DNA of 64,000 nucleotides. Source: Eledone cirrhosa (taxonomy: Eukaryota). The notes below the pieces were generated by a model, which saw only the letters and a list, made by a program, of their open reading frames with translations, did no database searches and was not told where the DNA came from. The position numbers and the translations under genes are program-made. The stretch is from NCBI GenBank assembly GCA_964016885.1, contig OZ024744.1, positions 134,912,001-134,976,000 on the forward strand, written 5' to 3'. This document shows positions 2,771 to 58,557 of this stretch, in pieces. How positions within the stretch are numbered: the stretch's first letter is position 1; the number at the start of each line of letters is the position of its first letter.

Positions 2771-2945
2771 AACCCCAACTTAACTTAACCCCAACTTCAC
2801 TCAACCCCAACGTAACTCAACCCCAACTTAACTTAACCCCAACTTCACTCAACCCCAACTTAACTTAACCCCAACTTCACTCAACCCCAACTTCCAACTT
2901 GACTTAACCCCAACTTAACTTAGCCCCAACTTAACTTAAGCCCAA
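2771..2945 (-). repeat. Inverted satellite island 1 (type A, 175 bp)
   Basis: C-rich AACCCCAACTTAACTT monomers; starts at GGGGTT|AACCCC, ends GCCCAA|AGTCGGGG; carries the AACTTCCAACTTGAC deletion junction. Confidence 0.97.
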
Positions 2946-5900
2946 AGTCGGGGTTAAGTTAAGTTGGCGTTAAGTTAAGTTGGCGTTAAGTTAAGTTAGG
3001 CTTAACTTAAGTTGGGGTTCAGTTAAGTTGGGGGTAAGTTAAGTTGGGGTTAAGTTAAGTTAGGGTTAAGTTAAGTTGGGGTTGAGTTAAGTTGGGGTTA
3101 ATTAAGTGGTGGTTATGTTAAGTTGGGGTTAAGTTAAGTTGGGGTTAATTTAAATTGGGGTTAAGTTAACTTTGTGGTTAAGTTAAGTTGGGGTTAAGTT
3201 AAGTTGGGGTAAAGTTGGGGTTGAGTTAAGTTGGGGTTGAGTGAAGTTGGGGTTAAGTTAAGTTGGGGTTAAGTTAAGTTGGGGTTAACATAAGTCGGGG
3301 TTAAGTTAAGTTGTGGTTGAGTTAAGTTGGGGTTAATTTAAGTTGGGGCTAAGTTAATTTGTGGTTAAGTTAAGTTGGGGTTAAGTTAAGTTGGGGTTAA
3401 GTTAAGTTGGGGTTGAGTTAAGTTGGGGCTGAGTTAATTTGGGTTTAAGTTAAGTTGGCGTTAAGTTAAGTTGGGGTTAAGTTAAGTTGGGGTTAAATTA
3501 AGTTGGGGTTAAATTAAGTTGGGGTTAAGTTAAGTTGGGGGTAAGTTAAGTTGGGGGCAAGTTAAGTTGGGGTTAATTTAAGTTGGGGTTAAATTAAGTT
3601 GGGGTTACGTTAAGTTGGTGTTAAGTTAAGTTGGGGTTAATTTAAGTTGGGGTTAATTAAGTTGGGGTTAAGTTAAGTTGGGGTTAAGTTAAGTTGGGGT
3701 TAATTTAAGTTGGGGTTGAGTTAAGTTGGGGTTAAGTTAAGTTGGGGTTATATTAAGTTGGGGTTAAGTTAAGTTGGGGTTCAGTTAAGTTGGGGTTAAG
3801 TTAAGTTGGGGTTAAGTTAAGTTGAGGTTAAGTTAAGTTGGGGTTAAGTTAAGTTGGTGTTAAGTTAAGTTGGGGCTAATTTAAGTTGGGGCTGAGTTAA
3901 GTTGGGGCTGAGTTAAGTTGGGGCTAAGTTAAGTTGGGGTTGAGTTAAGTTGGGGTTAAGTTGGGGTTAAGTTAAGTTAGGTTTAAGTTAAGTTGGGGTT
4001 AAGTTAAGTTGGGGTTAAGTTAAGTTGGGGTTAAGTTAAGTTGGGGTTAAGTTAAGTTGGGGTTAAGTTAAGTTGGGGTTAAGTTAATTTGTGGTTAAGT
4101 TAAGTTGTGGTTAAGTTAAGTTGGGGTTAAGTTAAGTTGGGGTTAAGTTAAGTCGGGGTTAAGTTAAGTTGGGGTTAAGTTAAGTTGGGGTTAATTTAAG
4201 TTGGGGTTAAGTTAAGTTGGGGTTAAGTTAAGTTGGGGTTAAGTTAAGTCGGGGTTAAGTTAAGTTGGGGTTAAGTTAAGTTGGGGTTAATTTAAGTTGG
4301 GGTTAAGTTAAGTTGGGGTTAAGTTAAGTTGGGGTTAAGTTAAGTTGGGGTTAAGTTAATTTGGGGTTAAGTTAAGTTGGGGCTAATTTAAGTTGGGGCT
4401 GAGTTAAGTTGGGGTTAAGTTAACCTGGAGTTAAGTTAAGTTGGGGTTAAGTTAAGTTGGGGTCAAGTTAAGTTGGGGTTTATTTAAGTTGGGGTTAAGT
4501 TAAGTTGGGGTTCAGTTAAGTTGGGGTTCAGTTAAGTTGGGGTTAAGTTAAGTTGGGGTTAAGATGGGGTTAAATTACGTTGGAGTTAAGTTAAGTTGGG
4601 GTTAAGTTAAGTTGGGGTTAAGTTAAGTTGGGGTTAAGTTAAGTCGGGGTTAATTTAAGTCGGGGTTAAGTTAAGTTAGGGTTCAGTTAAGTTGGGGTTA
4701 AGTTAAGTTGGGGTTGAATTAAGTTGGGGTTGAGTTAAATTGGGGTTGAGTTAAGTTGGGGTTGAGTTAAGTTGGTGTTGAGTTAAGTTGGGGTTAAGTT
4801 AAATTGGGGTTAAGTTAAGTTGCAGTTAAGTTAAGTTGAGGTTAAGTTAAGGTGCGGGTAAGTTAAGTTGGGCTTAAGTTAAGTTGGGGCTAAGTTAAAT
4901 TGGGGCTCAGTTAAGTTGGGGCTAAGTTAAGTTGGGGTTAAGTTAAGTTGGGGTTAAGTTAAGTCGGGGTTAAGTTAAGTTGGGGTTAAGTTAAGTTGGG
5001 GTTAATTTAAGTTGGGGTTAAGTTAAGTTGGGGTTAAGTTAAGTTGGGGTTAAGTTAAGTTGGGTTTAAGTTAAGTTGGGGTTAAGTTAAGTCGGGGTTG
5101 AGTTAAGTTGGGGCTGAGTTAATTTGGGGTTAAGTTAAGTTGGGGTTAAGTTAAGTTGGGTTTAAGTTAAGTTGGTTAGTTAAGTTGAGTTTAAGTTAAG
5201 TTGGGGTTAATTTAAGTTGGGGTTAAGTTAAGCTGGGGTTAAGTTAAGTTGGGGTTAAGTTAAGTTGGGGTTAATTTAAGTTGGGGTTAAGTTAAGTTGC
5301 GGGTAATTTAAGTTGGGGTTAAGTTAAGTTGGGGTTAAGTTAAGTTGGGGTTAAGTTAAGTTGGGGTTAAGTTAATTTGGGGTTAAGTTAAGTTGGGGCT
5401 AATTTAAGTTGGGGCTGAGTTAAGTTGGGGTTAAGTTAAGCTGGGGTTAAGTTAAGTTGGGGTTAAGTTAAGTTGGGGTTAAGTTAAGTTGGGGTTTATT
5501 TAAGTTGGGGTTAAGTTAAGTTGGGGTTCAGTTAAGTTGGGGTTCAGTTAAGTTGGGGTTAAGATGGGGTTAAATTACGTTGGAGTTAAGTTAAGTTGGG
5601 GTTAAGTTAAGTTGGGGTTAATTTAAGTTGGGGTTAAATTAAGTCGGGGTTAATTTAAGTCGGGGTTAAGTTAAGTTAGGGTTCAGTTAAGTTGGGGTTA
5701 AGTTAAGTTGGGGTTGAGTTAAGATGGGGTTCAGTTAAATTGGGGTTGAGTTAAGTTGGGGTTGAGTTAAGTTGGTGTTGAGTTAAGTTGGGGTTAAGTT
5801 AAATTGGGGTTAAGTTAAGTTGCAGTTAAGTTAAGTTGAGGTTAAGTTAAGGTGCGGTTAAGTTATGTTGGGGTTAAGTTAAGTTGGGGCTAAGTTAAGT

Positions 5901-6192
5901 TGGGGCTTAGTTAAGTTGGGGCTAAGTTAAGTTGGGGTTAAGTTAAGTTGGGGTTAAGTTAAGTCGGGGTTAAGTTAAGTTGGGGTTAAGTTAAGTTGGG
6001 GTTAATTTAAGTTGGGGTTAAGTTAAGTTGGGGTTAAGTTAAGTTGGGTTTAAGTTAAGTTGGGGTTAAGTTAAGTTGGGGTTTAGTTAAGTTGGGGTTA
6101 AGTTAAGTTGGTTAGTTAAGTTGAGTTTAAGTTAAGTTGGGGTTAATTTAAGTTGGGGTTAAGTTAAGTTGGGGTTAAGTTAAGTTGGGGTT

Positions 6193-6367
6193 AACCCCAA
6201 CTTAACTTAACCCCAACTTCACTCAACCCCAACGTAACTCAACCCCAACTTAACTTAACCCCAACTTCACTCAACCCCAACTTAACTTAACCCCAACTTC
6301 ACTCAACCCCAACTTCCAACTTGACTTAACCCCAACTTAACTTAGCCCCAACTTAACTTAAGCCCAA
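6193..6367 (-). repeat. Inverted satellite island 2 (type A, 175 bp)
   Basis: Same sequence and junctions as island 1. Confidence 0.97.
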
Positions 6368-8800
6368 AGTCGGGGTTAAGTTAAGTTGGCGTTAAGTTAA
6401 GTTGGCGTTAAGTTAAGTTAGGCTTAACTTAAGTTGGGGTTCAGTTAAGTTGGGGGTAAGTTAAGTTGGGGGTAAGTTAAGTTGGGGGTAAGTTAAGTTG
6501 GGGTTAAGTTAAGTTGCGGTTAAGTTGGGGTTAAGTTAAGTTAGGGTTAAGTTAAGTTGGGGTTGAGTTAAGTTGGGGTTAATTAAGTGGTGGTTATGTT
6601 AAGTTGGGGTTAAGTTAAGTTGGGGTTAATTTAAATTGGGGTTAAGTTAACTTTGTGGTTAAGTTAAGTTGGGGTTAAGTTAAGTTGGGGTAAAGTAGGG
6701 GTTGAGTTAAGTTGGGGTTGAGTGAAGTTGGGGTTAAGTTAAGTTGGGGTTAAGTTAAGTTGGGGTTAAGATAAGTCGGGGTTAAGTTAAGTTGTGGTTG
6801 ATTTAAGTTGGGGTTAATTTAAGTTGGGGCTAAGTTAATTTGTGGTTAAGTTAAGTTAGGGTTAAGTTAAGTTGGGGTTAAGTTAAGTTGGGGTTGAGTT
6901 AAGTTGGGGTTGAGTTAATTTGGGGTTAAGTTAAGTTGGGGTTAAGTTAAGTTGGGTTTAAGTTAAGTTGGGGTTAAATTAAGTTGGGGTTAAATTAAGT
7001 TGGGGTTAAGTTAAGTTGGGGGTAAGTTATGTTGGGGGCAAGTTAATTTGGGGTTAATTTAAGTTGGGGTTAAATTAAGTTGTGGTTACGTTAAGTTGGT
7101 GTTAAGTTAAGTTGGGGTTAATTTAAGTTGGGGTTAATTAAGTTGGGGTTAAGTTAAGTTGGGGTTAAGTTAAGTTGGGGTTAATTTAAGTTGGGGTTGA
7201 GTTAAGTTGGGGTTAAGTTAAGTTGGGGTTATATTAAGTTGGGGTTAAGTTAAGTTGGGGTTCAGTTAAGTTGGGGTTAAGTTAAGTTGGGGTTAAGTTA
7301 AGTTGAGGTTAAGTTAAGTTGGGGTTAAGTTAAGTTGGTGTTAAGTTAAGTTGGGGCTAAGTTAAGTTGGGGTTGAGTTAAGTTGGGGTTAAGTTGGGGT
7401 TAAGTTAAGTTAGGTTTAAGTTAAGTTGGGGTTAAGTTAAGTTGGGGTTAAGTTAAGTTGTGGTTAAGTTAAGTTGGGGTTAAGTTAAGTTGGGGTTAAG
7501 TTAAGTCGGGGTTAAGTTAAGTTGGGGTTAATTTAAGTTGGGGTTAATTTAAGTTGGGGTTAAGTTAAGTTGGGGTTAAGTTAAGTTGGGGTTAAGTTAA
7601 TTGGGGTTAAGTTAAGTTGGGGTTAAGTTAAGTTGAGGTTAAGTTAAGTTGGGGTTAAATTAAGTTTGGGTTAAGTTAAGTTGGGGTTAAGTTAAGTTGG
7701 GGTTAAGTTAAGTTGGGGATAAGTTAAGTTGGGGATAATTTAAGTTGGGGTTAAGTTAAGTTGGGTTTAAGTTAAGTTGGGGTTAAGTTAAGTTGGGGTT
7801 AAGTTAAGTTGGGGTTAAGTTAAGTTGGGGCTAAGTTAAGTTGGGGCTGAGTTAAGTTGGAGTTAAGTTAAGTTGGGGTTAAGTTAAGTTGGGGTTAAGT
7901 TAAGTTGGGGTTAATTTAAGTTGGGGTTAAGTTAAGTTGCGGGTAATTTAAGTTGGGGTTAAGTTAAGTTGGGGTTAAGTTAAGTTGGGGTTAAGTTAAG
8001 TTGGGGTTAAGTTAAGTTGGGGCTAATTTAAGTTGGGGCTGAGTTAAGTTGGGGTTAAGTTAAGTTGGGGTTAAGTTAAGTTGGGATTAAGTTAAGTTGG
8101 GGTTAAGTTAAGTTGGGGTTCAGTTAAGTTGGGGTTCAGTTAAGTTGGGGTTAAGTTAAGTTGGGGTTAAGATGGGGTTAAATTACGTTGGAGTTAAGTT
8201 AAGTTGGGGTTAAGTTAAGTTGGGGTTAAGTTAAGTTGGGGTTAAGTTAAGTCGGGGTTAATTTAAGTCGGGGTTAAGTTAAGTTAGGGTTCAGTTAAGT
8301 TGGGGTTAAGTTAAGTTGGGGTTGAGTTAAGATGGGGTTCAGTTAAATTGGGGTTGAGTTAAGTTGGGGTTGAGTTAAGTTGGTGTTGAGTTAAGTTGGG
8401 GTTAAGTTAAATTGGGGTTAAGTTAAGTTGCAGTTAAGTTAAGTTGAGGTTAAGTTAAGGTGCGGTTAAGTTAAGTTGGGGTTAAGTTAAGTTGGGGCTA
8501 AGTTAAGTTGGGGCTAAGTTAAGTTGGGGCTAAGTTAAGTTGGGGTTAAGTTAAGTTGGGGTTAAGTTAAGTCGGGGTTAAGTTAAGTTGGGGTTAAGTT
8601 AAGTTGGGGTTACTTTAAGTTGGGGTTAAGTTAAGTTGGGGTTAAGTTAAGTTGGGTTTAAGTTAAGTTGGGGTTAAGTTAAGTTGGGGTTAAGTTAAGT
8701 TGGGGTTAAGTTAAGTTGGTTAGTTAAGTTGAGTTTAAGTTAAGTTGGGGTTAATTTAAGTTGGGGTTAAGTTAAGTTGGGGTTAAGTTAAGTTGGGGTT

Positions 8801-8975
8801 AACCCCAACTTAACTTAACCCCAACTTCACTCAACCCCAACGTAACTCAACCCCAACTTAACTTAACCCCAACTTCACTCAACCCCAACTTAACTTAACC
8901 CCAACTTCACTCAACCCCAACTTCCAACTTGACTTAACCCCAACTTAACTTAGCCCCAACTTAACTTAAGCCCAA
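8801..8975 (-). repeat. Inverted satellite island 3 (type A, 175 bp)
   Basis: Same sequence and junctions as island 1. Confidence 0.97.
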
Positions 8976-10774
8976 AGTCGGGGTTAAGTTAAGTTGGCGT
9001 TAAGTTAAGTTGGCGTTAAGTTAAGTTAGGCTTAACTTAAGTTGGGGTTCAGTTAAGTTGGGGGTAAGTTAAGTTGGGGGTAAGTTAAGTTGGGGTTAAG
9101 TTAAGTTGCGGTTAAGTTGGGGTTAAGTTAAGTTAGGGTTAAGTTAAGTTGGGGTTGAGTTAAGTTGGGGTTAATTAAGTGGTGGTTATGTTAAGTTGGG
9201 GTTAAGTTAAGTTGGGGTTAATTTAATTTGGGGTTAAGTTAACTTTGTGGTTAAGTTAAGTTGGGGTTAAGTTAAGTTGGGGTAAAGTTGGGGTTGAGTT
9301 AAGTTGGGGTTGAGTGAAGTTGGGGTTAAGTTAAGTTGGGGTTAAGTTAAGTTGGGGTTAAGATAAGTCGGGGTTAAGTTAAGTTGTGGTTGATTTAAGT
9401 TGGGGTTAATTTAAGTTGGGGCTAAGTTAATTTGTGGTTAAGTTAAGTTAGGGTTAAGTTAAGTTGGGGTTAAGTTAAGTTGGGGTTGAGTTAAGTTGGG
9501 GTTGAGTTAATTTGGGGTTAAGTTAAGTTGGGGTTAATTTAAGTTGGGGTTAAGTTAAGTTGGGGTTAAGTTAAGTTGGGGTTAAGTTAATTGGGGTTAA
9601 GTTAAGTTGGGGTTAAGTTAAGTTGAGGTTAAGTTAAGTTGGGGTTAAATTAAGTTTGGGTTAAGTTAAGTTGGGGTTAAGTTAAGTTGGGGTTAAGTTA
9701 AGTTGGGGATAAGTTAAGTTGGGGATAATTTAAGTTGGGGTTAAGTTAAGTTGGGTTTAAGTTAAGTTGGGGTTAAGTTAAGTTGGGGTTAAGTTAAGTT
9801 GGGGTTAAGTTAAGTTGGGGCTAAGTTAAGTTGGGGCTGAGTTAAGTTGGAGTTAAGTTAAGTTGGGGTTAAGTTAAGTTGGGGTTAAGTTAAGTTGGGG
9901 TTAATTTAAGTTGGGGTTAAGTTAAGTTGCGGGTAATTTAAGTTGGGGTTAAGTTAAGTTGGGGTTAAGTTAAGTTGGGGTTAAGTTAAGTTGGGGTTAA
10001 GTTAAGTTGGGGCTAATTTAAGTTGGGGCTGAGTTAAGTTGGGGTTAAGTTAAGTTGGGGTTAAGTTAAGTTGGGATTAAGTTAAGTTGGGGTTAAGTTA
10101 AGTTGGGGTTCAGTTAAGTTGGGGTTCAGTTAAGTTGGGGTTAAGTTAAGTTGGGGTTAAGATGGGGTTAAATTACGTTGGAGTTAAGTTAAGTTGGGGT
10201 TAAGTTAAGTTGGGGTTAAGTTAAGTTGGGGTTAAGTTAAGTCGGGGTTAATTTAAGTCGGGGTTAAGTTAAGTTAGGGTTCAGTTAAGTTGGGGTTAAG
10301 TTAAGTTGGGGTTGAGTTAAGATGGGGTTCAGTTAAATTGGGGTTGAGTTAAGTTGGGGTTGAGTTAAGTTGGTGTTGAGTTAAGTTGGGGTTAAGTTAA
10401 ATTGGGGTTAAGTTAAGTTGCAGTTAAGTTAAGTTGAGGTTAAGTTAAGGTGCGGTTAAGTTAAGTTGGGGTTAAGTTAAGTTGGGGCTAAGTTAAGTTG
10501 GGGCTAAGTTAAGTTGGGGCTAAGTTAAGTTGGGGTTAAGTTAAGTTGGGGTTAAGTTAAGTCGGGGTTAAGTTAAGTTGGGGTTAAGTTAAGTTGGGGT
10601 TACTTTAAGTTGGGGTTAAGTTAAGTTGGGGTTAAGTTAAGTTGGGTTTAAGTTAAGTTGGGGTTAAGTTAAGTTGGGGTTAAGTTAAGTTGGTTAGTTA
10701 AGTTGAGTTTAAGTTAAGTTGGGGTTAATTTAAGTTGGGGTTAAGTTAAGTTGGGGTTAAGTTAAGTTGGGGTT

Positions 10775-10949
10775 AACCCCAACTTAACTTAACCCCAACT
10801 TCACTCAACCCCAACGTAACTCAACCCCAACTTAACTTAACCCCAACTTCACTCAACCCCAACTTAACTTAACCCCAACTTCACTCAACCCCAACTTCCA
10901 ACTTGACTTAACCCCAACTTAACTTAGCCCCAACTTAACTTAAGCCCAA
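10775..10949 (-). repeat. Inverted satellite island 4 (type A, 175 bp)
   Basis: Same sequence and junctions as island 1. Confidence 0.97.
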
Positions 10950-13062
10950 AGTCGGGGTTAAGTTAAGTTGGCGTTAAGTTAAGTTGGCGTTAAGTTAAGT
11001 TAGGCTTAACTTAAGTTGGGGTTCAGTTAAGTTGGGGGTAAGTTAAGTTGGGGGTAAGTTAAGTTGGGGTTAAGTTAAGTTGCGGTTAAGTTGGGGTTAA
11101 GTTAAGTTAGGGTTAAGTTAAGTTGGGGTTGAGTTAAGTTGGGGTTAATTAAGTGGTGGTTATGTTAAGTTGGGGTTAAGTTAAGTTGGGGTTAATTTAA
11201 TTTGGGGTTAAGTTAACTTTGTGGTTAAGTTAAGTTGGGGTTAAGTTAAGTTGGGGTAAAGTTGGGGTTGAGTTAAGTTGGGGTTGAGTGAAGTTGGGGT
11301 TAAGTTAAGTTGGGGTTAAGTTAAGTTGGGGTTAAGATAAGTCGGGGTTAAGTTAAGTTGTGGTTGATTTAAGTTGGGGTTAATTTAAGTTGGGGCTAAG
11401 TTAATTTGTGGTTAAGTTAAGTTAGGGTTAAGTTAAGTTGGGGTTAAGTTAAGTTGGGGTTGAGTTAAGTTGGGGTTGAGTTAATTTGGGGTTAAGTTAA
11501 GTTGGGGTTAAGTTAAGTTGGGTTTAAGTTAAGTTGGGGTTAAATTAAGTTGGGGTTAAATTAAGTTGGGGTTAAGTTAAGTTGGGGGTAAGTTAAGTTG
11601 GGGGCAAGTTAATTTGGGGTTAATTTAAGTTGGGGTTAAATTAAGTTGTGGTTACGTTAAGTTGGTGTTAAGTTAAGTTGGGGTTAATTTAAGTTGGGGT
11701 TAATTAAGTTGGGGTTAAGTTAAGTTGGGGTTAAGTTAAGTTGGGGTTAATTTAAGTTGGGGTTGAGTTAATATGGGGTTAAGTTAAGTTGGAGTTATAT
11801 TAAGTTGGGGTTAAGTTAAGTTGGGGTTCAGTTAAGTTGGGGTTAAGTTAAGTTGGGGTTAAGTTAAGTTGGGGCTAAGTTAAGTTGGGGCTGAGTTAAG
11901 TTGGGGCTGAGTTAAGTTGGGGCTAAGTTAAGTTGGGGTTGAGTTAAGTTGGGGTTAGTTGGGGTTAAGTTAAGTTAGGTTTAAGTTAAGTTGGGGTTAA
12001 GTTAAGTTGGGCTTAAGTTAAGTCGGGGTTAAGTTAAGTTGGGGTTAAGTTAAGTTGGGGTTAATTTAAGTTGGGGTTAAGTTAAGTTGGGGTTATGTTA
12101 AGTTGGGTTTAAGTTAAGTTGGGGTTAAGTTAAGTTGAGGTTAAATTAAGTTGGGGTTAAGTTAAGTTGAGGTTAAGTTAAGTTGGGGTTAAGTTAAGTT
12201 GGGGATAAGTTAAGTTGGGGATAATTTAAGTTGGGGTTAAGTTAAGTTGGGTTTAAGTTAAGTTGGGGTTAAGTTAAGTTGGGGTTAAGTTAAGTTGGGG
12301 TTAAGTTAAGTTGGGGTTAAGTTAAGTTGGGGCTAAGTTAAGTTGGGGCTGAGTTAAGTTGGGGTTAAGTTAAATTGGGGTTAAGTTAAGTTGGGGTTAA
12401 GTTAAGTTGGGGTTAAGTTAAGTTGGGGTTTATTTAAGTTGGGGTTAAGTTAAGTTGGGGTTCAGTTAAGTTGGGGTTCAGTTAAGTTGGGGTTAAGTTA
12501 AGTTGGGGTTAAAATGGGGTTAAATTAAGTTGGGGTTAAGTTAAGTTGGGGTTAAGTTAAGTTGGGGTTAAGCTAAGTTGGGGTTAAGTTAAGTCGGGGT
12601 TAAGTTAAGTCGGGGTTAAGTTAAGTTAGGGTTCAGTTAAGTTGGGGTTAAGTTAAGTTGGGGTTGAGTTAAGTTGGGGTTGAGTTAAGTTGGGGTTAAG
12701 TTAAGTTGGGGTTAAGTTAAGTTGCAGTTAAGTTAAGTTGAGGTTAAGTTAAGGTGCGGTTAAGTTAAGTTGGGGTTAAGTTAAGTTGGGGCTAAGTTAA
12801 GTTTGGGTTAAGTTAAGTCGGGGTTAAGTTAAGTTGGGGTTAAGTTAAGTTGGGGTTAATTTAAGTTGGGGTTAAGTTAAGTTGGGGTTAAGTTAAGTTG
12901 GGGTTAAGTTAAGTTGGGGTTGAGTTAAGTTGGGTTTAAGTTAAGTTGGGGTTAAGTTAAGTTGGTTAGTTAAGTTGAGTTTAAGTTAAGTTGGGGTTAA
13001 TTTAAGTTGGGGTTAAGTTAAGTTGGGGTTAAGTTAAGTTGGGGTTAAGTTAAGTTGGGTTT

Positions 13063-13262
13063 AACCCCAACTTAACTTAACCCCAACTTCACTCAACCCC
13101 AACGTAACTCAACCCCAACTTAACTTAACCCCAACTTCACTCAACCCCAACTTAACTTAACCCCAACTTCACTCAACACCAACTTAAGTCAACCCCAACT
13201 TAACTTAACCCCAACTTGACTTAACCCCAACTTAAATTAGCCCCAACTTAACTTAAGCCCAA
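13063..13262 (-). repeat. Inverted satellite island 5 (type B, 200 bp)
   Basis: Left junction GGGTTT|AACCCC; markers CAACACCAAC and AAATTAGCCC. Confidence 0.97.
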
Positions 13263-17769: not shown

Positions 17770-17969
17770 AACCCCAACTTAACTTAACCCCAACTTCACT
17801 CAACCCCAACGTAACTCAACCCCAACTTAACTTAACCCCAACTTCACTCAACCCCAACTTAACTTAACCCCAACTTTACTCAACACCAACTTAAGTCAAC
17901 CCCAACTTAACTTAACCCCAACTTGACTTAACCCCAACTTAAATTAGCCCCAACTTAACTTAAGCCCAA
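17770..17969 (-). repeat. Inverted satellite island 6 (type B, 200 bp)
   Basis: Type B markers plus private AACTTTACTC. Confidence 0.97.
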
Positions 17970-23825: not shown

Positions 23826-24041
23826 AACCCCAACTTAACTTAACCCCAACTTAACTTAACCCCAACTTCACTCAACCCCAACGTAACTCAACCCCAACTT
23901 AACTTAACCCCAACTTCACTCAACCCCAACTTAACTTAACCCCAACTTCACTCAACCCCAACTTAAGTCAACCCCAACTTAACTTAACCCCAACTTGACT
24001 TAACCCCAACTTAACTTAGCCCCAACTTAACTTAAGCCCAA
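23826..24041 (-). repeat. Inverted satellite island 8 (type C, 216 bp)
   Basis: Same as island 7. Confidence 0.97.
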
Positions 24042-47167: not shown

Positions 47168-47383
47168 AACCCCAACTTAACTTAACCCCAACTTAACTTA
47201 ACCCCAACTTCACTCAACCCCAACGTAACTCAACCCCAACTTAACTTAACCCCAACTTCACTCAACCCCAACTTAACTTAACCCCAACTTCACTCAACCC
47301 CAACTTAAGTCAACCCCAACTTAACTTAACCCCAACTTGACTTAACCCCAACTTAACTTAGCCCCAACTTAACTTAAGCCCAA
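47168..47383 (-). repeat. Inverted satellite island 16 (type C, 216 bp)
   Basis: Paralog of islands 10 and 19. Confidence 0.97.
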
Positions 47384-48605: not shown

Positions 48606-48816
48606 AACCCCAACTTAACTTAACCCCAACTTAACTTAACCCCAACGTAACTCAACCCCAACGTAACTCAACCCCAACTTAACTTAACCCAACTTCACTC
48701 AACCCCAACTTAACTTAACCCCAACTTCACTCAACCCCAACTTAAGTCAACCCCAACTTAACTTAACCCCAACTTGACTTAACCCCAACTTAAGCCCCAA
48801 CTTAACTTAAGCCCAA
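48606..48816 (-). repeat. Inverted satellite island 17 (type D2, 211 bp)
   Basis: Type D with two consecutive AACGTAACTC monomers. Confidence 0.97.
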
Positions 48817-50275
48817 AGTCGGGGTTAAGTTAAGTTGGCGTTAAGTTAAGTTAGGCTTAACTTAAGTTGGGGGTAAGTTAAGTTGGGGGTAAGTTAAGTT
48901 GGGGTTAAGTTAAGTTGCGGTTAAGTTGGGGTTAAGTTAAGTTAGGGTTAAGTTAAGTTGGCGTTGAGTTAAGTTGGGGTTAATTAAGTGGTGGTTATGT
49001 TAAGTTGGGGTTAATTTAAATTGGGGTGAAGTTAACTTTGTGGTTAAGTTAAGTTGGGGTTAAGTTAAGTTGGGATTAAGTTGGGGTTGAGTTAAGTTGG
49101 GGTTGAGTGAAGTTGGGGTTAAGTTAAGTTGGGGTAAAGTTAAGTTGGGGTTAAGTTAAGTCGGGGTTAAGTTAAGTTGTGGTTGAGTTAAGTTGGGGTT
49201 AATTTAAGTTGGGGCTAAGTTAATTTGTGGTTAAGTTAAGTTGGGGTTAAGTTAAGTTGGGGTTAAGTTAAGTTGGGGTTAAGTTAAGTTGCAGTTAAGT
49301 TAAGTTGAGGTTAAGTTAAGTTGGGGTTAAGTTAAGTTGGGGTTAAGTTAAGTTGGGGTTCAGTTAAGTTGGGGTTAAGTTAAGTTGGGGTTAAGATGGG
49401 GTTAAATTAAGTTGGGGTTAAGTTAAGTTGGGGTTAAGTTAAGTTGGGGTTAAGTTAAGTTGGGGTTAAGTTAAGTCGGGGTTAAGTTAAGTCGGGGTTA
49501 AGTTAAGTTAGGGTTCAGTTAAGTTGGGGTTAAGTTAAGTTGGGGTTGAGTTAAGTTGGGGTTGAGTTAAATTGGGGTTGAGTTAAGTTGGGGTTGAGTT
49601 AAGTTGGTGTTGAGTTAAGTTGGGGTTAAGTTAAGTTGGGGTTAAGTTAAGTTGCAGTTAAGTTAAGTTGAGGTTAAGTTAAGGTGCGGTTAAGTTAAGT
49701 TGGGGTTAAGTTAAGTTGGGGCTAAGTTAAGTTGGGGCTAAGTTAAGTTGGGGCTAAGTTAAGTTGGGGTTAAGTTACGTTGGGGTTAAGTTAAGTCGGG
49801 GTTAATTTAAGTTGGGGTTAAGTTAAGTTGGGGTTAATTTAAGTTGGGGTTAAGTTAAGTGGGGTTAAGTTAAGTTGGGGTTAAGTTAAGTTGGGGTTAA
49901 GTTAAGTTGGGTTTAAGTTAAGTTGGGGTTAAGTTAAGTTGGGGTCAAGTTAAGTTGGGGTTAAGTTATGTTGGTTAGTTAAGTTGAGTTTAAGTTAATT
50001 TGGGGTTAATTTAAGTTGGGGTTAAGTTAAGTTGGGGTTAAGTTAAGTTGGGGTTAAGTTAAGTGGTGTTAAGTTAAGTTGGGGTTAAGTTAAGTTGGGG
50101 TTAAGTTAAGTTGGGGTTAAGTTAAGTTGGGTTTAAGTTAAGTTGGGGTTAAGTTAAGTTGGGGTCAAGTTAAGTTGGGGTTAAGTTAAGTTGGTTAGTT
50201 AAGTTGAGTTTAAGTTAAGTTGGGGTTAATTTAAGTTGGGGTTAAGTTAAGTTGGGGTTAAGTTAAGTTGGGGTT

Positions 50276-50486
50276 AACCCCAACTTAACTTAACCCCAAC
50301 TTAACTTAACCCCAACGTAACTCAACCCCAACGTAACTCAACCCCAACTTAACTTAACCCAACTTCACTCAACCCCAACTTAACTTAACCCCAACTTCAC
50401 TCAACCCCAACTTAAGTCAACCCCAACTTAACTTAACCCCAACTTGACTTAACCCCAACTTAAGCCCCAACTTAACTTAAGCCCAA
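50276..50486 (-). repeat. Inverted satellite island 18 (type D2, 211 bp)
   Basis: Same as island 17. Confidence 0.97.
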
Positions 50487-53400
50487 AGTCGGGGTTAAGT
50501 TAAGTTGGCGTTAAGTTAAGTTAGGCTTAACTTAAGTTGGGGGTAAGTTAAGTTGGGGGTAAGTTAAGTTGGGGTTAAGTTAAGTTGCGGTTAAGTTGGG
50601 GTTAAGTTAAGTTAGGGTTAAGTTAAGTTGGCGTTGAGTTAAGTTGGGGTTAATTAAGTGGTGGTTATGTTAAGTTGGGGTTAATTTAAATTGGGGTGAA
50701 GTTAACTTTGTGGTTAAGTTAAGTTGGGGTTAAGTTAAGTTGGGATTAAGTTGGGGTTGAGTTAAGTTGGGGTTGAGTGAAGTTGGGGTTAAGTTAAGTT
50801 GGGGTAAAGTTAAGTTGGGGTTAAGTTAAGTCGGGGTTAAGTTAAGTTGTGGTTGAGTTAAGTTGGGGTTAATTTAAGTTGGGGCTAAGTTAATTTGTGG
50901 TTAAGTTAAGTTGGGGTTAAGTTAAGTTGGGGTTAAGTTAAGTTGCAGTTAAGTTAAGTTGAGGTTAAGTTAAGTTGGGGTTAAGTTAAGTTGGGGTTAA
51001 GTTAAGTTGGGGTTCAGTTAAGTTGCAGTTAAGTTAAGTTGAGGTTAAGTTAAGTTGGGGTTAAGTTAAGTTGGGGTTAAGTTAAGTTGGGGTTCAGTTA
51101 AGTTGGGGTTAAGTTAAGTTGGGGTTAAGATGGGGTTAAATTAAGTTGGGGTTAAGTTAAGTTGTGGTTGAGTTAAGTTGGGGTTAATTTAAGTTGGGGC
51201 TAAGTTAATTTGTGGTTAAGTTAAGTTGGGGTTAAGTTAAGTTGGGGTTAAGTTAAGTTGGGGTTAAGTTAAGTTGCAGTTAAGTTAAGTTGAGGTTAAG
51301 TTAAGTTGGGGTTAAGTTAAGTTGGGGTTAAGTTAAGTTGGGGCTAAGTTAAGTTGGGGCTAAGTTAAGTTGGGGCTAAGTTAAGTTGGGGTTAAGTTAA
51401 GTTGGGGTTAAGTTAAGTTGGGGTTAATTTAAGTTGGGGTTAAGTTAAGTTGGGGTTAAGTTAAGTTGGTGTTAAATTAAGTTGGGGCTAAGTTAAGTTG
51501 GGGCTGAGTTAAGTTGGGGCTGAGTTAAGTTGGGGTTAAGTTAAGTTGGGGTTGAGTTAAGTTGGGGTTAAGTTAAGTTGGGGTCAAGTTAAGTTGGGGT
51601 TAAGTTAAGTTGGGGTTAAGTTAAGTTGGGGTTAAGTTAAGTCGGGGTTAAGTTAAGTTGGGGTTAAGTTAAGTTGGGGTTAATTTAAGTTGGGGTTAAG
51701 TTAAGTTGGGGTTAAGTTAAGTTGGGGTTAAGTTAAGTTGGGGTTAAGTTAAGTTGGGGATAATTTAAGTTGGGGTTAAGTTAAGTTTGGGTTTAAGTTA
51801 AGTTGGGGTTAAGTTAAGTTGGGGTTAAGTTAAGTTGGGGTTAAGTTAAGTTGGTTAGTTAAGTTGAGTTTAAGTTAAGTTGGGGTTAATTTAAGTTGGG
51901 GTTAAGTTAAGTCGGGGTTAATTTAAGTCGGGGTTAAGTTAAGTTAGGGTTCAGTTAAGTTGGGGTTAAGTTAAGTTGGGGTTGAGTTAAGTTGGGGTTG
52001 AGTTAAGTTGGGGTTGAGTTAATTTGGGGTTAAGTTGGGGTTAAGTTAAGTTGGGTTTAAGTTAAGTTGGGGGCAAGTTAAGTTGGGGTTAAATTAAGTT
52101 GGGGTTAAATTAAGTTGGGGTTAAGTTAAGTTGGGGGTAAGTTAAGTTGGGGCAAGTTAAGTTGGGGTTAATTTAAGTTGGGGTTCAATTAAGTTGGGGT
52201 TACGTTAAGTTGGTGTTAAGTTAAGTTGGGGTTAATTTAAGTTGGGGTTAATTAAGTTGGGGTTAAGTTAAGTTGGGGTTAAGTTAAGTTGGGGTTAATT
52301 TAAGTTGGGGTTGAGTTAAGTTGGGGTTAAGTTAAGTTGGGGTTATATTAAGTTGGGGTTAAGTTAAGTTGGGGTTCAGTTAAGTTGGGGATAAGTTAAG
52401 TTGGGGTTAAGTTAAGTTGGGGTTAATTAAGTTGGGGTTAAGTTAAGTTGGGGTTAAGTTAAGTTGGGGCTAAGTTAAGTTGGGGCTGAGTTAAGTTGGG
52501 GCTGAGTTAAGTTGGGGTTAAGTTAAGTTGGGGTTGAGTTAAGTTGGGGTTAAGTTAAGTTGGGGTCAAGTTAAGTTGGGGTTAAGTTGGGGTTAAGTTA
52601 AGTTAGGTTTAAGTTAAGTTGGGGTTAAGTTAAGTTGGGGTTAAGTTAAGTTGGGGTTAAGTTAAGTTGGGGTTAAGTTAATTTGTGGTTTAGTTAAGTT
52701 GGGGTTAAGTTAAGTTGGGGTTAAGTTAAGTTGGGGTTAAGTTAAGTCGGGGTTAAGTTAAGTTGGGGTTAAGTTAAGTTGGGGTTAAGTTAAGTTGGGG
52801 TTAAGTTAAGTTGGGGTTAAGTTAAGTTGAGGTTAAGTTAAGTTGGGGTTAAATTAAGTTGGGGTTAAGTTAAGTTGGGGTTAAGTTAAGTTGGGGTTAA
52901 GTTAAGTTGGGGATAAGTTAAGTTGGGGATGATTTAAGTTGGGGTTAAGTTAAGTTGGGTTTAAGTTAAGTTGGGGTTAAGTTAAGTTGGGGATATGTTA
53001 AGTTGGGGTTAAGTTAAGTTTGGGTTAAGTTAAGTTGGGGTTAAGTTAAGTTGGGGCTAAGTTAAGTTGGGGCTGAGTTAAGTTGGGGTTAATTTAAGTT
53101 GGGGTTAAGTTAAGTTGGGATTAATTTAAGTTGGGGTTTATTTAAGTTGGGGTTAAGTTAAGTTGGGGTTCAGTTAAGTTGGGGTTAAGTTAATTTGGGG
53201 TTAAGATGGGGTTAAATTAAGTTGGGGTTAAGTTAAGTTGGGGTTAAGTTAAGTTGGGGTTAAGTTAAGTTGGGGTTAAGTTAAGTCGGGGTTAAGTTAA
53301 GTCGGGGTTAAGTTAAGTTAGGGTTCAGTTAAGTTGGGGTTAAGTTAAGTTGGGGTTGAGTTAAATTGGGGTTGAGTTAAGTTGGTGTTGAGTTAAGTTG

Positions 53401-53693
53401 GGGTTAAGTTAAGTTGGGGTTAAGTTAAGTTGCAGTTAAGTTAAGTTGAGGTTAAGTTAAGGTGCGGTTAAGTTAAGTTGGGGTTAAGTTAAGTTGGGGC
53501 TAAGTTAAGTTGGGGCTAAGTTAAGTTGGGGCTAAGTTAAGTTGGGGTTAAGTTACGTTGGGGTTAAGTTAAGTCAGGGTTAAGTTAAGTTGGGGTTAAG
53601 TTAAGTTGGGGTTAATTTAAGTTGGGGTTAAGTTAAGTTGGGGTTAAGTTAAGTTGGGGTTAAGTTAAGTTGGGGTTAAGTTAAGTTGGGGTT

Positions 53694-53909
53694 AACCCCA
53701 ACTTAACTTAACCCCAACTTAACTTAACCCCAACTTCACTCAACCCCAACGTAACTCAACCCCAACTTAACTTAACCCCAACTTCACTCAACCCCAACTT
53801 AACTTAACCCCAACTTCACTCAACCCCAACTTAAGTCAACCCCAACTTAACTTAACCCCAACTTGACTTAACCCCAACTTAACTTAGCCCCAACTTAACT
53901 TAAGCCCAA
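53694..53909 (-). repeat. Inverted satellite island 19 (type C, 216 bp)
   Basis: Paralog of island 16. Confidence 0.97.
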
Positions 53910-55146
53910 AGTCGGGGTTAAGTTAAGTTGGCGTTAAGTTAAGTTAGGCTTAACTTAAGTTGGGGGTAAGTTAAGTTGGGGGTAAGTTAAGTTGGGGTTA
54001 AGTTAAGTTGCGGTTAAGTTGGGGTTAAGTTAAGTTAGGGTTAAGTTAAGTTGGCGTTGAGTTAAGTTGGGGTTAATTAAGTGGTGGTTATGTTAAGTTG
54101 GGGTTAATTTAAATTGGGGTGAAGTTAACTTTGTGGTTAAGTTAAGTTGGGGTTAAGTTAAGTTGGGGTTAAGTTGGGGTTGAGTTAAGTTGGGGTTGAG
54201 TGAAGTTGGGGTTAAGTTAAGTTGGGGTAAAGTTAAGTTGGGGTTAAGTTAAGTCGGGGTTAAGTTAAGTTGTGGTTGAGTTAAGTTGGGTTAATTTAAG
54301 TTGGGGCTAAGTTAATTTGTGGTTAAGTTAAGTTGGGGTTAAGTTAAGTTGGGGTTAAGTTAAGTTGGGGTTAAGTTAAGTTGCAGTTAAGTTAAGTTGA
54401 GGTTAAGTTAAGTTGGGGTTAAGTTAAGTTGGGGTTAAGTTAAGTTGGGGTTCAGTTAAGTTGGGGTTAAGTTAAGTTGGGGTTAAGATGGGGTTAAATT
54501 AAGTTGGGGTTAAGTTAAGTTGGGGTTAAGTTAAGTTGGGGTTAAGTTAAGTTGGGGTTAAGTTAAGTCGGGGTTAAGTTAAGTCGGGGTTAAGTTAAGT
54601 TAAGGTTCAGTTAAGTTGGGGTTAAGTTAAGTTGGGGTTGAGTTAAGTTGGGGTTGAGTTAAATTGGGGTTGAGTTAAGTTGGGGTTGAGTTAAGTTGGT
54701 GTTGAGTTAAGTTGGGGTTAAGTTAAGTTGGGGTTAAGTTAAGTTGCAGTTAAGTTAAGTTGAGGTTAAGTTAAGGTGCGGTTAAGTTAAGTTGGGGTTA
54801 AGTTAAGTTGGGGCTAAGTTAAGTTGGGGCTAAGTTAAGTTGGGGCTAACTTAAGTTGGGGTTAAGTTACGTTGGGGTTAAGTTAAGTCGGGGTTAAGTT
54901 AAGTTGGGGTTAAGTTAAGTTGGGGTTAATTTAATTGGGGTTAAGTTAAGTGGGGTTAAGTTAAGTTGGGGTTAAGTTAAGTTGGGGTTAAGTTAAGTTG
55001 GGTTTAAGTTAAGTTGGGGTTAAGTTAAGTTGGGGTCAAGTTAAGTTGGGGTTAATTTAAGTTGGTTAGTTAAGTTGAGTTTAAGTTAAGTTGGGGTTAA
55101 TTTAAGTTGGGGTTAAGTTAAGTTGGGGTTAAGTTAAGTTGGGGTT

Positions 55147-55357
55147 AACCCCAACTTAACTTAACCCCAACTTAACTTAACCCCAACGTAACTCAACCCC
55201 AACGTAACTCAACCCCAACTTAACTTAACCCAACTTCACTCAACCCCAACTTAACTTAACCCCAACTTCACTCAACCCCAACTTAAGTCAACCCCAACTT
55301 AACTTAACCCCAACTTGACTTAACCCCAACTTAAGCCCCAACTTAACTTAAGCCCAA
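55147..55357 (-). repeat. Inverted satellite island 20 (type D2, 211 bp)
   Basis: Paralog of island 17. Confidence 0.97.
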
Positions 55358-56816
55358 AGTCGGGGTTAAGTTAAGTTGGCGTTAAGTTAAGTTAGGCTTA
55401 ACTTAAGTTGGGGGTAAGTTAAGTTGGGGGTAAGTTAAGTTGGGGTTAAGTTAAGTTGCGGTTAAGTTGGGGTTAAGTTAAGTTAGGGTTAAGTTAAGTT
55501 GGCGTTGAGTTAAGTTGGGGTTAATTAAGTGGTGGTTATGTTAAGTTGGGGTTAATTTAAATTGGGGTGAAGTTAACTTTGTGGTTAAGTTAAGTTGGGG
55601 TTAAGTTAAGTTGGGATTAAGTTGGGGTTGAGTTAAGTTGGGGTTGAGTGAAGTTGGGGTTAAGTTAAGTTGGGGTAAAGTTAAGTTGGGGTTAAGTTAA
55701 GTCGGGGTTAAGTTAAGTTGTGGTTGAGTTAAGTTGGGGTTAATTTAAGTTGGGGCTAAGTTAATTTGTGGTTAAGTTAAGTTGGGGTTAAGTTAAGTTG
55801 GGGTTAAGTTAAGTTGGGGTTAAGTTAAGTTGCAGTTAAGTTAAGTTGAGGTTAAGTTAAGTTGGGGTTAAGTTAAGTTGGGGTTAAGTTAAGTTGGGGT
55901 TCAGTTAAGTTGGGGTTAAGTTAAGTTGGGGTTAAGATGGGGTTAAATTAAGTTGGGGTTAAGTTAAGTTGGGGTTAAGTTAAGTTGGGGTTAAGTTAAG
56001 TTGGGGTTAAGTTAAGTCGGGGTTAAGTTAAGTCGGGGTTAAGTTAAGTTAGGGTTCAGTTAAGTTGGGGTTAAGTTAAGTTGGGGTTGAGTTAAGTTGG
56101 GGTTGAGTTAAATTGGGGTTGAGTTAAGTTGGGGTTGAGTTAAGTTGGTGTTGAGTTAAGTTGGGGTTAAGTTAAGTTGGGGTTAAGTTAAGTTGCAGTT
56201 AAGTTAAGTTGAGGTTAAGTTAAGGTGCGGTTAAGTTAAGTTGGGGTTAAGTTAAGTTGGGGCTAAGTTAAGTTGGGGCTAAGTTAAGTTGGGGCTAAGT
56301 TAAGTTGGGGTTAAGTTACGTTGGGGTTAAGTTAAGTCGGGGTTAATTTAAGTTGGGGTTAAGTTAAGTTGGGGTTAATTTAAGTTGGGGTTAAGTTAAG
56401 TGGGGTTAAGTTAAGTTGGGGTTAAGTTAAGTTGGGGTTAAGTTAAGTTGGGTTTAAGTTAAGTTGGGGTTAAGTTAAGTTGGGGTCAAGTTAAGTTGGG
56501 GTTAAGTTATGTTGGTTAGTTAAGTTGAGTTTAAGTTAATTTGGGGTTAATTTAAGTTGGGGTTAAGTTAAGTTGGGGTTAAGTTAAGTTGGGGTTAAGT
56601 TAAGTGGTGTTAAGTTAAGTTGGGGTTAAGTTAAGTTGGGGTTAAGTTAAGTTGGGGTTAAGTTAAGTTGGGTTTAAGTTAAGTTGGGGTTAAGTTAAGT
56701 TGGGGTCAAGTTAAGTTGGGGTTAAGTTAAGTTGGTTAGTTAAGTTGAGTTTAAGTTAAGTTGGGGTTAATTTAAGTTGGGGTTAAGTTAAGTTGGGGTT
56801 AAGTTAAGTTGGGGTT

Positions 56817-57027
56817 AACCCCAACTTAACTTAACCCCAACTTAACTTAACCCCAACGTAACTCAACCCCAACGTAACTCAACCCCAACTTAACTTAACC
56901 CAACTTCACTCAACCCCAACTTAACTTAACCCCAACTTCACTCAACCCCAACTTAAGTCAACCCCAACTTAACTTAACCCCAACTTGACTTAACCCCAAC
57001 TTAAGCCCCAACTTAACTTAAGCCCAA
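56817..57027 (-). repeat. Inverted satellite island 21 (type D2, 211 bp)
   Basis: Paralog of island 18. Confidence 0.97.
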
Positions 57028-58346
57028 AGTCGGGGTTAAGTTAAGTTGGCGTTAAGTTAAGTTAGGCTTAACTTAAGTTGGGGGTAAGTTAAGTTGGGGG
57101 TAAGTTAAGTTGGGGTTAAGTTAAGTTGCGGTTAAGTTGGGGTTAAGTTAAGTTAGGGTTAAGTTAAGTTGGCGTTGAGTTAAGTTGGGGTTAATTAAGT
57201 GGTGGTTATGTTAAGTTGGGGTTAATTTAAATTGGGGTGAAGTTAACTTTGTGGTTAAGTTAAGTTGGGGTTAAGTTAAGTTGGGATTAAGTTGGGGTTG
57301 AGTTAAGTTGGGGTCGACTGAAGTTGGGATTAAGTTAAGTTGGGGTAAAGTTAAGTTGGGGTTAAGTTAAGTCGGGGTTAAGTTAAGTTGTGGTTGAGTT
57401 AAGTTGGGGTTAATTTAAGTTGGGGCTAAGTTAATTTGTGGTTAAGTTAAGTTGGGGTTAAGTTAAGTTGGGGTTAAGTTAAGTTGCAGTTAAGTTAAGT
57501 TGAGGTTAAGTTAAGTTGGGGTTAAGTTAAGTTGGGGTTAAGTTAAGTTGGGGTTCAGTTAAGTTGCAGTTAAGTTAAGTTGAGGTTAAGTTAAGTTGGG
57601 GTTAAGTTAAGTTGGGGTTAAGTTAAGTTGGGGTTCAGTTAAGTTGGGGTTAAGTTAAGTTGGGGTTAAGATGGGGTTAAATTAAGTTGGGGTTAAGTTA
57701 AGTTGGGGTTAAGTTAAGTTGGGGTTAAGGTAAGTTGGGGTTAAGTTAAGTCGGGGCTAAGTTAAGTCGGGGTTAAGTTAAGTTAGGGTTCAGTTAAGTT
57801 GGGGTTAAGTTAAGTTGGGGTTGAGTTAAGTTGGGGTTGAGTTAAATTGGGGTTGAGTTAAGTTGGGGTTGAGTTAAGTTGGTGTTGAGTTAAGTTGGGG
57901 TTAAGTTAAGTTGGGGTTAAGTTAAGTTGCAGTTAAGTTAAGTTGAGGTTAAGTTAAGGTGCGGTTAAGTTAAGTTGGGGTTAAGTTAAGTTGGGGCTAA
58001 GTTAAGTTGGGGCTAAGTTAAGTTGGGGCTAAGTTAAGTTGGGGTTAAGTTACGTTGGGGTTAAGTTAAGTCGGGGTTAATTTAAGTTGGGGTTAAGTTA
58101 AGTTGGGGTTAATTTAAGTTGGGGTTAAGTTAAGTGGGGTTAAGTTAAGTTGGGGTTAAGTTAAGTTGGGGTTAAGTTAAGTTGGGTTTAAGTTAAGTTG
58201 GGGTTAAGTTAAGTTGGGGTCAAGTTAAGTTGGGGTTAAGTTATGTTGGTTAGTTAAGTTGAGTTTAAGTTAATTTGGGGTTAATTTAAGTTGGGGTTAA
58301 GTTAAGTTGGGGTTAAGTTAAGTTGGGGTTAAGTTAAGTTGGGGTT

Positions 58347-58557
58347 AACCCCAACTTAACTTAACCCCAACTTAACTTAACCCCAACGTAACTCAACCCC
58401 AACGTAACTCAACCCCAACTTAACTTAACCCAACTTCACTCAACCCCAACTTAACTTAACCCAAACTTCACTCAACCCCAACTTAAGTCAACCCCAACTT
58501 AACTTAACCCCAACTTGACTTAACCCCAACTTAAGCCCCAACTTAACTTAAGCCCAA
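58347..58557 (-). repeat. Inverted satellite island 22 (type D2, 211 bp)
   Basis: Type D2 with private AACCCAAACTTCAC. Confidence 0.97.

What the first reader, a model, noticed from the sequence alone, without database searches (positions are those of the whole stretch)
2771..58557. 22 copies of a single ancestral micro-inversion punctuate a strand-asymmetric satellite every 1.4-4.7 kb
Seen: 22 C-rich islands of 175-216 bp with the same left junction, the same right junction (AAGCCCAAAGTCGGGG) and the same internal variant order (TTCACTC, ACGTAACTC, TTGACTT, AGCCCC). The spacers between islands vary more than threefold and are mosaics of shuffled modules, yet I saw no truncated island. Inference: one inversion was amplified as the fixed core of a variable-length higher-order repeat. 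Intactness may be mechanistic, because in-register unequal exchange with forward monomers cannot break inside an inverted block. It could also reflect a role as a periodic structural, protein-binding or recombination-seeding element.
Basis: partly seen in the sequence, partly recalled or inferred. Interest (0 to 1): 0.75.

Follow-up and report, generated by a model that had tools for sequence, protein, structure and literature searches.

The report
Passenger inversions that seed larger flips
The 22 short back-to-front patches in this 16-letter DNA repeat are real and share a junction with about 900 more in the same genome; they likely descend from one copying error, were likely multiplied as passengers with no job of their own, and likely act as switch-back points for later, larger flips.

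Summary
In detail: 22 reverse-oriented islands (175-216 bp) sit in a 16-bp satellite, with one right junction (22 of 22) and one palindromic TTAA left junction (18 exact, 4 with one substitution). The window is part of an ~8.4-Mb array; the genome holds 924 matches to this junction family. A periodic role is not supported. Two tandem duplications (18 kb, 6.5 kb) account for 9 of the 22 islands. Forward-strand markers are as regular. Long sectors lack islands. Elsewhere spacing runs from 238 bp to 33.5 kb, and 14 of 190 sampled islands are broken. Neutral simulations bracket the observed regularity. Two independent island families (C28, C18) are inverted copies of their own left flank with TTAA junctions, which points to replication template switching as the birth mechanism. 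The scan reported the same on other windows of this array. Closest known: Tribolium conserved inversion sites, human satellite strand switches, DUP-TRP/INV-DUP. Raw reads were not examined.

The parts
1..64000 (+). 16-bp G-rich satellite, monomer GGGGTTAAGTTAAGTT (two TTAA palindromes per monomer); part of an array at about G000:C28:126.97-135.4 Mb
   Evidence: (period 16, 4031.8 copies)
2771..2945 (-). island 1, type 1, 175 bp
6193..6367 (-). island 2, type 1, 175 bp
8801..8975 (-). island 3, type 1, 175 bp
10775..10949 (-). island 4, type 1, 175 bp
13063..13262 (-). island 5, type 2, 200 bp, G>T at left junction
17770..17969 (-). island 6, type 3, 200 bp, G>T at left junction
21689..21904 (-). 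island 7, type 4, 216 bp; 43-bp perfect palindrome arms at left junction
23826..24041 (-). island 8, type 4, 216 bp
25217..25427 (-). island 9, type 5, 211 bp
29161..29376 (-). island 10, type 4, 216 bp
31107..31306 (-). island 11, type 2 (copy of island 5 in the 18-kb duplication)
35793..35992 (-). island 12, type 3 (copy of island 6)
39712..39927 (-). island 13, type 4 (copy of island 7)
41833..42048 (-). island 14, type 4 (copy of island 8)
43224..43434 (-). island 15, type 5 (copy of island 9)
47168..47383 (-). island 16, type 4 (copy of island 10)
48606..48816 (-). island 17, type 6, 211 bp
50276..50486 (-). island 18, type 6, 211 bp
53694..53909 (-). island 19, type 4 (copy of island 16 in the 6.5-kb duplication)
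55147..55357 (-). island 20, type 6 (copy of island 17)
56817..57027 (-). island 21, type 6 (copy of island 18)
58347..58557 (-). island 22, type 7, 211 bp
11924..47928 (+). 18.0-kb tandem duplication (about 11924-29921 and 29968-47928) carrying islands 5-10 and 11-16
   Evidence: diagonals of 7,934, 6,149 and 2,788 bp with 3, 1 and 0 mismatches at offsets 18,007-18,044
44622..57705 (+). 6.5-kb tandem duplication (about 44622-51164 and 51148-57705) carrying islands 16-18 and 19-21
   Evidence: 3,143 bp at offset 6,526 (0 mismatches) and 2,739 bp at offset 6,541 (3 mismatches)
2946..3400 (+). example of the forward right flank that travels with the island (five variant markers 44-405 bp after the right junction)
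   Evidence: each marker in 19-21 of 21 island-to-island units

Best explanation
The 22 islands are real back-to-front blocks of the 16-bp satellite that likely descend from one replication template switch at the monomer's TTAA palindrome, were likely multiplied as neutral passengers when kilobase blocks of the array duplicated, and likely serve as switch-back points for later, larger inverted insertions. Shown: shared junctions, nested duplications, co-travelling forward flank, island-free sectors, broken copies, two younger island families that copy their own left flank, and four larger rearrangements that end inside islands. Inferred: that the nascent strand jumped to the opposite template at TTAA, copied a few hundred bases backwards and jumped back; that direct in-register exchange keeps the two junctions paired because forward monomers cannot pair with reverse ones; and that a strand copying the array backwards finds forward-facing homology only inside an island and returns there.
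For: One origin: 22 of 22 right junctions identical; 924 junction-family matches in the genome; long and short subfamilies share markers near both junctions. Passenger: 9 of 22 islands come from two duplications; forward markers have CV 0.37-0.46 and lie in 19-21 of 21 units; 149.6 kb without a strand switch; island-free samples at 127.2-128.6 and 135.08-135.32 Mb and on C3; spacing 238-33,535 bp and 14 of 190 broken; homology-guided neutral models reach CV <= 0.44 in 90-100% of runs of 22 islands. Birth: family B's 36-base marker occurs 4 times in 1.084 Mb, twice inside islands and twice in the abutting left flank, with 48 and 64 bp of look-ahead; family C on C18 shows the same; 5 of 6 founding junctions lie on TTAA. 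Seeding: junctions inside islands at C28:133,355,376 (17-bp identity), 132,857.0 kb, 128,584.6 kb and 124,599,476. An island-independent junction pattern hit C28 twice, both times the partner end of an island-ended event.
Against: Homology-blind neutral models reached CV <= 0.44 in only 0-29% of runs and both regularity criteria in 0-7%; neither model was fitted, and the homology-guided one is more regular than the data. Island-linked markers are among the most regular tenth of 98 marker sets. Family A matches its own flanks no better than island-free DNA, so its birth mechanism rests on analogy with B and C, and its right junction has only 1 base of microhomology. Three of the four seeded events were found from island patterns on an unexpected strand. 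About 1.26 of ~8.4 Mb were read. The largest event spans two assembly gaps. No raw reads were examined.
Confidence: 0.75

Rival explanations
1. The islands are kept by selection as periodic hairpin/cruciform or protein-binding landmarks, as proposed for Tribolium macro-dyad symmetries.
For: Spacing more even than chance. The left junction gives 27-43-bp perfect arms in 18 of 22, and island 7 with its flank folds at -187 kcal/mol, z -29.6, though this follows directly from inverted monomers. 924 copies. Homology-blind neutral models seldom give the observed evenness.
Against: Island-free sectors and C3 samples; spacing from 238 bp to 33.5 kb, CV up to 1.46; 10 copies that lost the palindromic junction were amplified with an AT-rich block; four window islands have a substitution that breaks the perfect arm; the satellite pattern was listed on only C3, C18 and C28.
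Confidence: 0.1
2. The islands are passengers, but their link to larger inversions is an ascertainment or assembly effect.
For: Events 2, 3 and 4 were found from island-junction patterns. Event 1 is split by two 200-N gaps with a 0.8-Mb contig between them. Islands B and C and two truncations formed by microhomology without island homology.
Against: Event 1 was found by strand sampling. Its two junctions lie on different contigs yet meet the host unit 24 bp apart in phase, and the contig ends share exact runs of 7,154 and 7,560 bp. Event 2 duplicates 61-93 bp of host at one site. The island-independent pattern found only events 1 and 2 on C28. Islands are roughly 1-7% of local DNA (22 x ~205 bp of 64 kb in the window).
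Confidence: 0.12
3. The islands are sequencing or assembly artefacts (fold-back chimeric reads).
For: The left junction is a fold-back palindrome; a degraded low-complexity contig end lies at C28:132,793.7-132,795.1 kb; raw reads were not examined.
Against: Fixed junctions in hundreds of copies; nested variant types inherited through duplications with 0-3 mismatches; subfamilies confined to sectors; family A is not a mirror of its flank.
Confidence: 0.03

Closest known systems
Conserved inversion sites and macro-dyad symmetries of Tribolium satellites (T. madens TmSat1/TmSat2, PMC13081366; T. freemani TfSat01/TfSat03, PMC12581902; passages seen)
   Same: Orientation switches inside satellite arrays fall into a few highly conserved junction types present in hundreds to thousands of copies, with no foreign DNA at the junction; a fixed frame holds a variable number of monomers.
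   Different: There the subarrays are kilobases long, roughly symmetric and on many chromosomes, and a structural role is hypothesised. Here the inverted part is 0.1-0.5 kb in an otherwise one-way array, each family is confined to sectors of one array, and broken copies and island-free sectors argue for passive spread.
Strand switches in human beta-satellite and HSat3 (CEN09) arrays (bioRxiv 10.64898/2026.07.22.740206; passages seen)
   Same: Hundreds of strand switches whose number scales with array length, read by the authors as by-products of array expansion.
   Different: The passages seen do not resolve junction ancestry, paired short islands, or islands at the ends of larger inversions.
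DUP-TRP/INV-DUP rearrangements (PMC11293582; abstract and Introduction seen)
   Same: An inverted segment with one junction in inverted-repeat homology and the other made by microhomology or end joining, as in events 1-3 here.
   Different: Those use kilobase low-copy repeats or Alu pairs in gene-bearing DNA and are defined by copy-number steps; here the homology is 17 bp to ~100 bp of satellite monomer, and copy number could not be measured.
ODIRA-type template switch at short interrupted inverted repeats (PMC10766186; passages seen)
   Same: Leading-to-lagging switch at ~5-nt inverted repeats 40-80 nt apart; families B and C have TTAA junctions with about 30-64 bp of look-ahead.
   Different: ODIRA needs an origin and two forks and yields kilobase triplications; B and C are 144-245 bp out-and-back copies, and no origin was tested.

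Membership tests
Tribolium-type macro-dyad satellite arrays | Conserved inversion junction types in many copies without foreign DNA | tested here: met
Tribolium-type macro-dyad satellite arrays | Multi-kilobase, roughly symmetric opposite subarrays | tested here: not met
   islands 115-499 bp against spacers of kilobases
Tribolium-type macro-dyad satellite arrays | Same junction types on several non-homologous chromosomes | tested here: not met
   first 100 listed family A matches all on C28 (unlisted ones not seen); family B only on C28; family C only on C18
Tribolium-type macro-dyad satellite arrays | (Peri)centromeric location | not testable with these tools
   no CENH3 data; the monomer pattern was listed on 3 of 28 large contigs
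Classical higher-order repeat | A multi-monomer unit repeated with higher identity than its monomers | tested here: met
   diagonals; markers in 19-21 of 21 units
Classical higher-order repeat | Fixed period | tested here: not met
   1,386-4,707 bp in the window
DUP-TRP/INV-DUP (secondary events, not the islands themselves) | One junction in inverted-repeat homology, the other by microhomology | tested here: met
   events 1-3
DUP-TRP/INV-DUP (secondary events, not the islands themselves) | Duplication-triplication-duplication copy-number profile | tested here: inconclusive
   event 2 duplicates 61-93 bp of host, event 1 loses 24 bp; dosage cannot be read in a satellite
ODIRA / fork template switch (island birth) | Inverted copy of adjacent DNA joined at short inverted repeats tens of bases apart | tested here: met
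   families B and C
ODIRA / fork template switch (island birth) | Same signature for family A, the window's islands | tested here: inconclusive
   TTAA left junction, but no template in either flank
ODIRA / fork template switch (island birth) | Replication origin within the amplified segment | not testable with these tools
   no replication data
Transposon (MITE/foldback) insertion | Foreign sequence, terminal inverted repeats, different target sites | tested here: not met
   islands are pure satellite monomers and keep the same flanks

The most novel reading that the evidence does not exclude
A satellite whose monomer carries a 4-base palindrome runs a two-step inversion ratchet: TTAA template switches make tiny inverted islands again and again (three independent families here), duplication spreads them, and each copy becomes the preferred return point for later inverted insertions up to the half-megabase scale and even for joins to another satellite. 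That would give a purely mutational source for the 'conserved inversion sites' now read as functional in other animals.
Probability: 0.55. Interest if true: 0.6.

Novelty: new variant of a known kind. Interest (0 to 1): 0.42.

Why it matters
Conserved inversion junctions in satellites have been taken as a hint of structural function (Tribolium). This array offers an internal control set: births with their template still beside them, passive spread, broken copies that spread as well, island-free sectors, and larger inversions ending in islands. If reads confirm it, it is a directly testable neutral model for how strand switches arise and multiply in satellite DNA, and the islands are lineage markers for dating array sectors and finding misplaced contigs. 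It shows no function.

Tried and rejected
Fold-back origin of family A from its present flanks: local alignments and longest exact matches were no better than island-free DNA. Pre-inversion allele: the right-flank marker occurs without an island at 128.8-129.8 and 132.2-132.8 Mb, but the inverted part was not found in forward orientation beside it. Simple reciprocal inversion for the large block: a search for a type-1 island lacking its last monomers gave one hit, an internal one-monomer deletion; the true left end is a TTAA junction. Large block as a fresh exact copy of the forward sector: longest exact matches were at most 1.4 kb, so it is older or grew after insertion; not resolved. Mirror (chimeric) structure at the orphan junction: no long match between the two sides. 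Event 2 as a perfect palindrome: arms do not align as mirrors; it is an insertion. Hairpin energy follows from inverted monomers and was not counted as evidence of function. Literature: (satellite with inverted/dyad, inversion breakpoint/template switch, strand switch/HSat3, micro-inversion terms) listed no paper whose title or abstract start describes short amplified islands seeding larger inversions; only listings were seen for most, and subscription papers are not held. One search (term 'octopus', a recalled and untested guess from the karyotype) listed nothing on this satellite. No supplements were opened; those of the two Tribolium papers hold junction alignments that may bear on the comparison. 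Simulations were not fitted to the data.
Full report
Setting. The window is one 16-bp satellite, monomer GGGGTTAAGTTAAGTT, 4,032 copies, strongly G/T-skewed. It lies at G000:C28:134,912,001-134,976,000 in a 3.0-Gb genome, near the end of a 136.5-Mb contig. Samples place the array between about 126.97 and 135.4 Mb. The same satellite occurs on C3 (184.77-185.38 Mb) and C18. The organism was not determined.

Observation. Exactly 22 reverse-oriented islands are present and no CCC lies outside them. They fall into 7 types of 175, 200, 211 and 216 bp. The right junction is identical in 22 of 22. The left junction is a fold-back on the monomer's first TTAA, exact in 18 of 22. The variant order holds in 17 of 22. 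Types differ by whole monomers and by small out-of-register deletions, so the inside of the island turns over while the junctions stay paired. Spacing is more even than uniform placement (CV 0.44 against 0.88, P = 0.0002).

The copies are not independent. Near-exact diagonals show an 18.0-kb tandem duplication (islands 5-10 to 11-16) and a 6.5-kb one (16-18 to 19-21) with 0-3 mismatches over 2.7-7.9 kb. These account for 9 of the 22. The conserved core is wider than the island: five ordinary forward variants 44-405 bp past the right junction lie in 19-21 of 21 units. Among 98 forward marker sets of similar copy number, 9% are at least as even as the islands, including one about 680 bp away with CV 0.37; the median is 0.75. 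The islands are therefore at the regular end but not unique.

The family in the genome. The exact right-junction 36-mer has 350 matches, a variant 104, the palindromic left 44-mer 489, and a degenerate right-junction pattern 924. The first 100 places listed are all on C28; the rest were not listed. Long subfamilies (about 245-500 bp, 131.2-132.8 Mb) share the junctions and the internal markers next to them. In 1.084 Mb read in 52 stretches, 199 short opposite-strand segments were found; 5 at stretch edges, 2 of family B and 2 of gap junk were set aside. Of the 190 family A rows, 174 have both junctions, 2 have a point-mutated junction, and 14 are broken: 10 fused to an AT-rich block, 3 truncated on the right (68, 68 and 137 bp) and 1 with a remodelled left junction. 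Intact lengths run from 115 to 499 bp and spacing from 238 to 33,535 bp; five other stretches have CV 0.43-1.46. There is a 149.6-kb run without a switch, and samples at 127.2-128.6 Mb, 135.08-135.32 Mb and two on C3 hold no island.

Neutral models. Homology-blind duplication and deletion (9 settings) gave CV <= 0.44 in 0-29% of runs of 22 islands, best with large events, and met both evenness criteria in 0-7%. Homology-guided exchange (6 settings) gave CV <= 0.44 in 90-100%, for islands and in five of six settings 73-100% for point markers, usually more even than observed. The data lie between the two. Neither model was fitted, so this shows that selection is not needed, not that it is absent.

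How an island is born. Family A no longer matches its flanks better than island-free DNA. Two other families do. Family B (29 left and 30 right junction matches at 128.57-129.60 Mb) carries a 36-base marker seen 4 times in 1.084 Mb: once inside each of two islands and once in each abutting left flank, with exact matches of 50 and 99 bp ending at the junction and 48 or 64 bp of look-ahead. Family C (3 copies on C18, 144 bp) repeats two rare monomers of its left flank in reverse. Five of the six founding junctions lie on TTAA; the family A right junction has 1 base of overlap. Inference: a nascent strand jumps to the opposite template at TTAA a few monomers ahead, copies back and returns. This works like the switch in ODIRA (PMC10766186, passages) without being shown to be ODIRA.

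Islands at the ends of larger events. (1) A reverse block of about 0.57 Mb ends at 133,355,376 in a right junction with no left partner; after two island monomers the sequence passes to the outer repeat within 17 bp of identity. Its other end is a TTAA junction at 131,964,581. The two ends meet the host unit 24 bp apart in phase. The reverse contig ends at the two intervening gaps share exact runs of 7,154 and 7,560 bp, and the contig between them resembles a block at 124.6 Mb, so it is probably misplaced. (2) A 2.2-kb insert at 132,857-132,859 kb leaves by TTAA, returns through an island and duplicates 61-93 bp of host. (3) At 128,584-128,587 kb a palindrome with arms identical from 19 to 1,283 bp folds in the AT-rich block and ends in a family B island. 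(4) After one search showed a reverse block at 124.6 Mb, I checked its end: it lies inside an island, joined to a related 32-bp satellite. Islands are roughly 1-7% of local DNA (and the window). Events 2-4 were found through island patterns, which biases the count. Event 1 was found by strand sampling, and an island-independent junction pattern hit C28 only at events 1 and 2. About 1.26 Mb of the array had been classified. Events 1-3 have the junction pair described for DUP-TRP/INV-DUP, one in inverted homology and one by microhomology (PMC11293582, Introduction).

Function. An island with its left flank folds strongly as a single strand, which any inverted run of monomers would do. Loss of the palindrome did not stop 10 sampled copies from spreading. 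I found no sign of a selected role; protein binding and centromere status could not be tested.

Comparison and novelty. Conserved, amplified inversion junctions are known from Tribolium satellites (PMC13081366, PMC12581902; passages), where subarrays are kilobases long, spread over many chromosomes and proposed to be structural. Human beta-satellite and HSat3 arrays hold hundreds of strand switches read as by-products of expansion (bioRxiv 10.64898/2026.07.22.740206; passages). Four searches listed no description of short paired islands seeding larger inverted insertions. I file this as a new variant of a known kind. Earlier unreviewed notes of this scan on other windows of the same array reach the same reading; my reading was set before that look-up. 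Those notes gave me the DUP-TRP/INV-DUP paper, the human strand-switch lead and the prompt for the count. Families B and C and events 3 and 4 were not in the text of the notes I saw.

Verdict. The feature is real. Passive amplification with mutational seeding: 0.75. Seeding as an ascertainment or assembly effect: 0.12. Selected periodic role: 0.10. Artefact: 0.03. Confirmation in raw long reads remains open. Interest 0.42.

Noticed in passing
G000:C28:128.57-129.60 Mb (L004, L049, L152-L153): Independent island family B, about 30 copies of 210-245 bp, an inverted copy of its own left flank with TTAA at both junctions.
   Followed up: yes
G000:C18:10,129,120, 10,132,220 and 10,188,796 (L160, L162, L164): Independent island family C, 3 copies of 144 bp, same fold-back signature, in a small array of the same satellite.
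   Followed up: yes
G000:C28:131,987,543-132,793,542: Contig between two 200-N gaps is probably misplaced: the reverse ends on either side share 7-kb exact runs, and it shares 64-mers with the 124.6-Mb block (0.21-0.39) but other sectors do not (0.02-0.06).
   Followed up: partly
G000:C28:132.2-132.79 Mb and 128.57-128.84 Mb (L010, L049, L079, L152): An AT-rich ~37-bp repeat block of 0.7-8.4 kb is embedded in the satellite; in the 132-Mb sector it replaces the left junction of an island and was amplified with it.
   Followed up: partly
G000:C28:124,554-124,599 kb (L168-L172): A related G-rich 32-bp satellite (1,431 copies in the part read) joins the 16-bp array inside an island, keeping the G-rich strand on the same side.
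   Followed up: partly
G000:C28:124,692,837 and 124,731,481 (L175, L179): A 242-bp run of the 16-bp monomer sits inside a longer GC-rich repeated element seen twice 38.6 kb apart; a possible carrier or source of the monomer.
   Followed up: no
G000:C28:132,793,743-132,795,070 (L088): Contig start degrades into low-complexity C/A sequence, typical of a poor read end.
   Followed up: no
G000:C28:135.6-136.5 Mb (L016, L018, L020-L023): Several unrelated tandem repeats lie between the array and the contig end; no TTAGGG run at this end, whereas C10 starts with one.
   Followed up: no
window 2448-2466 and 23 similar sites: A forward deletion variant (GGTTAGTTAAGTTGAGTTT) occurs 24 times and marks 17 of 21 island-to-island units; a useful neutral marker.
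   Followed up: partly
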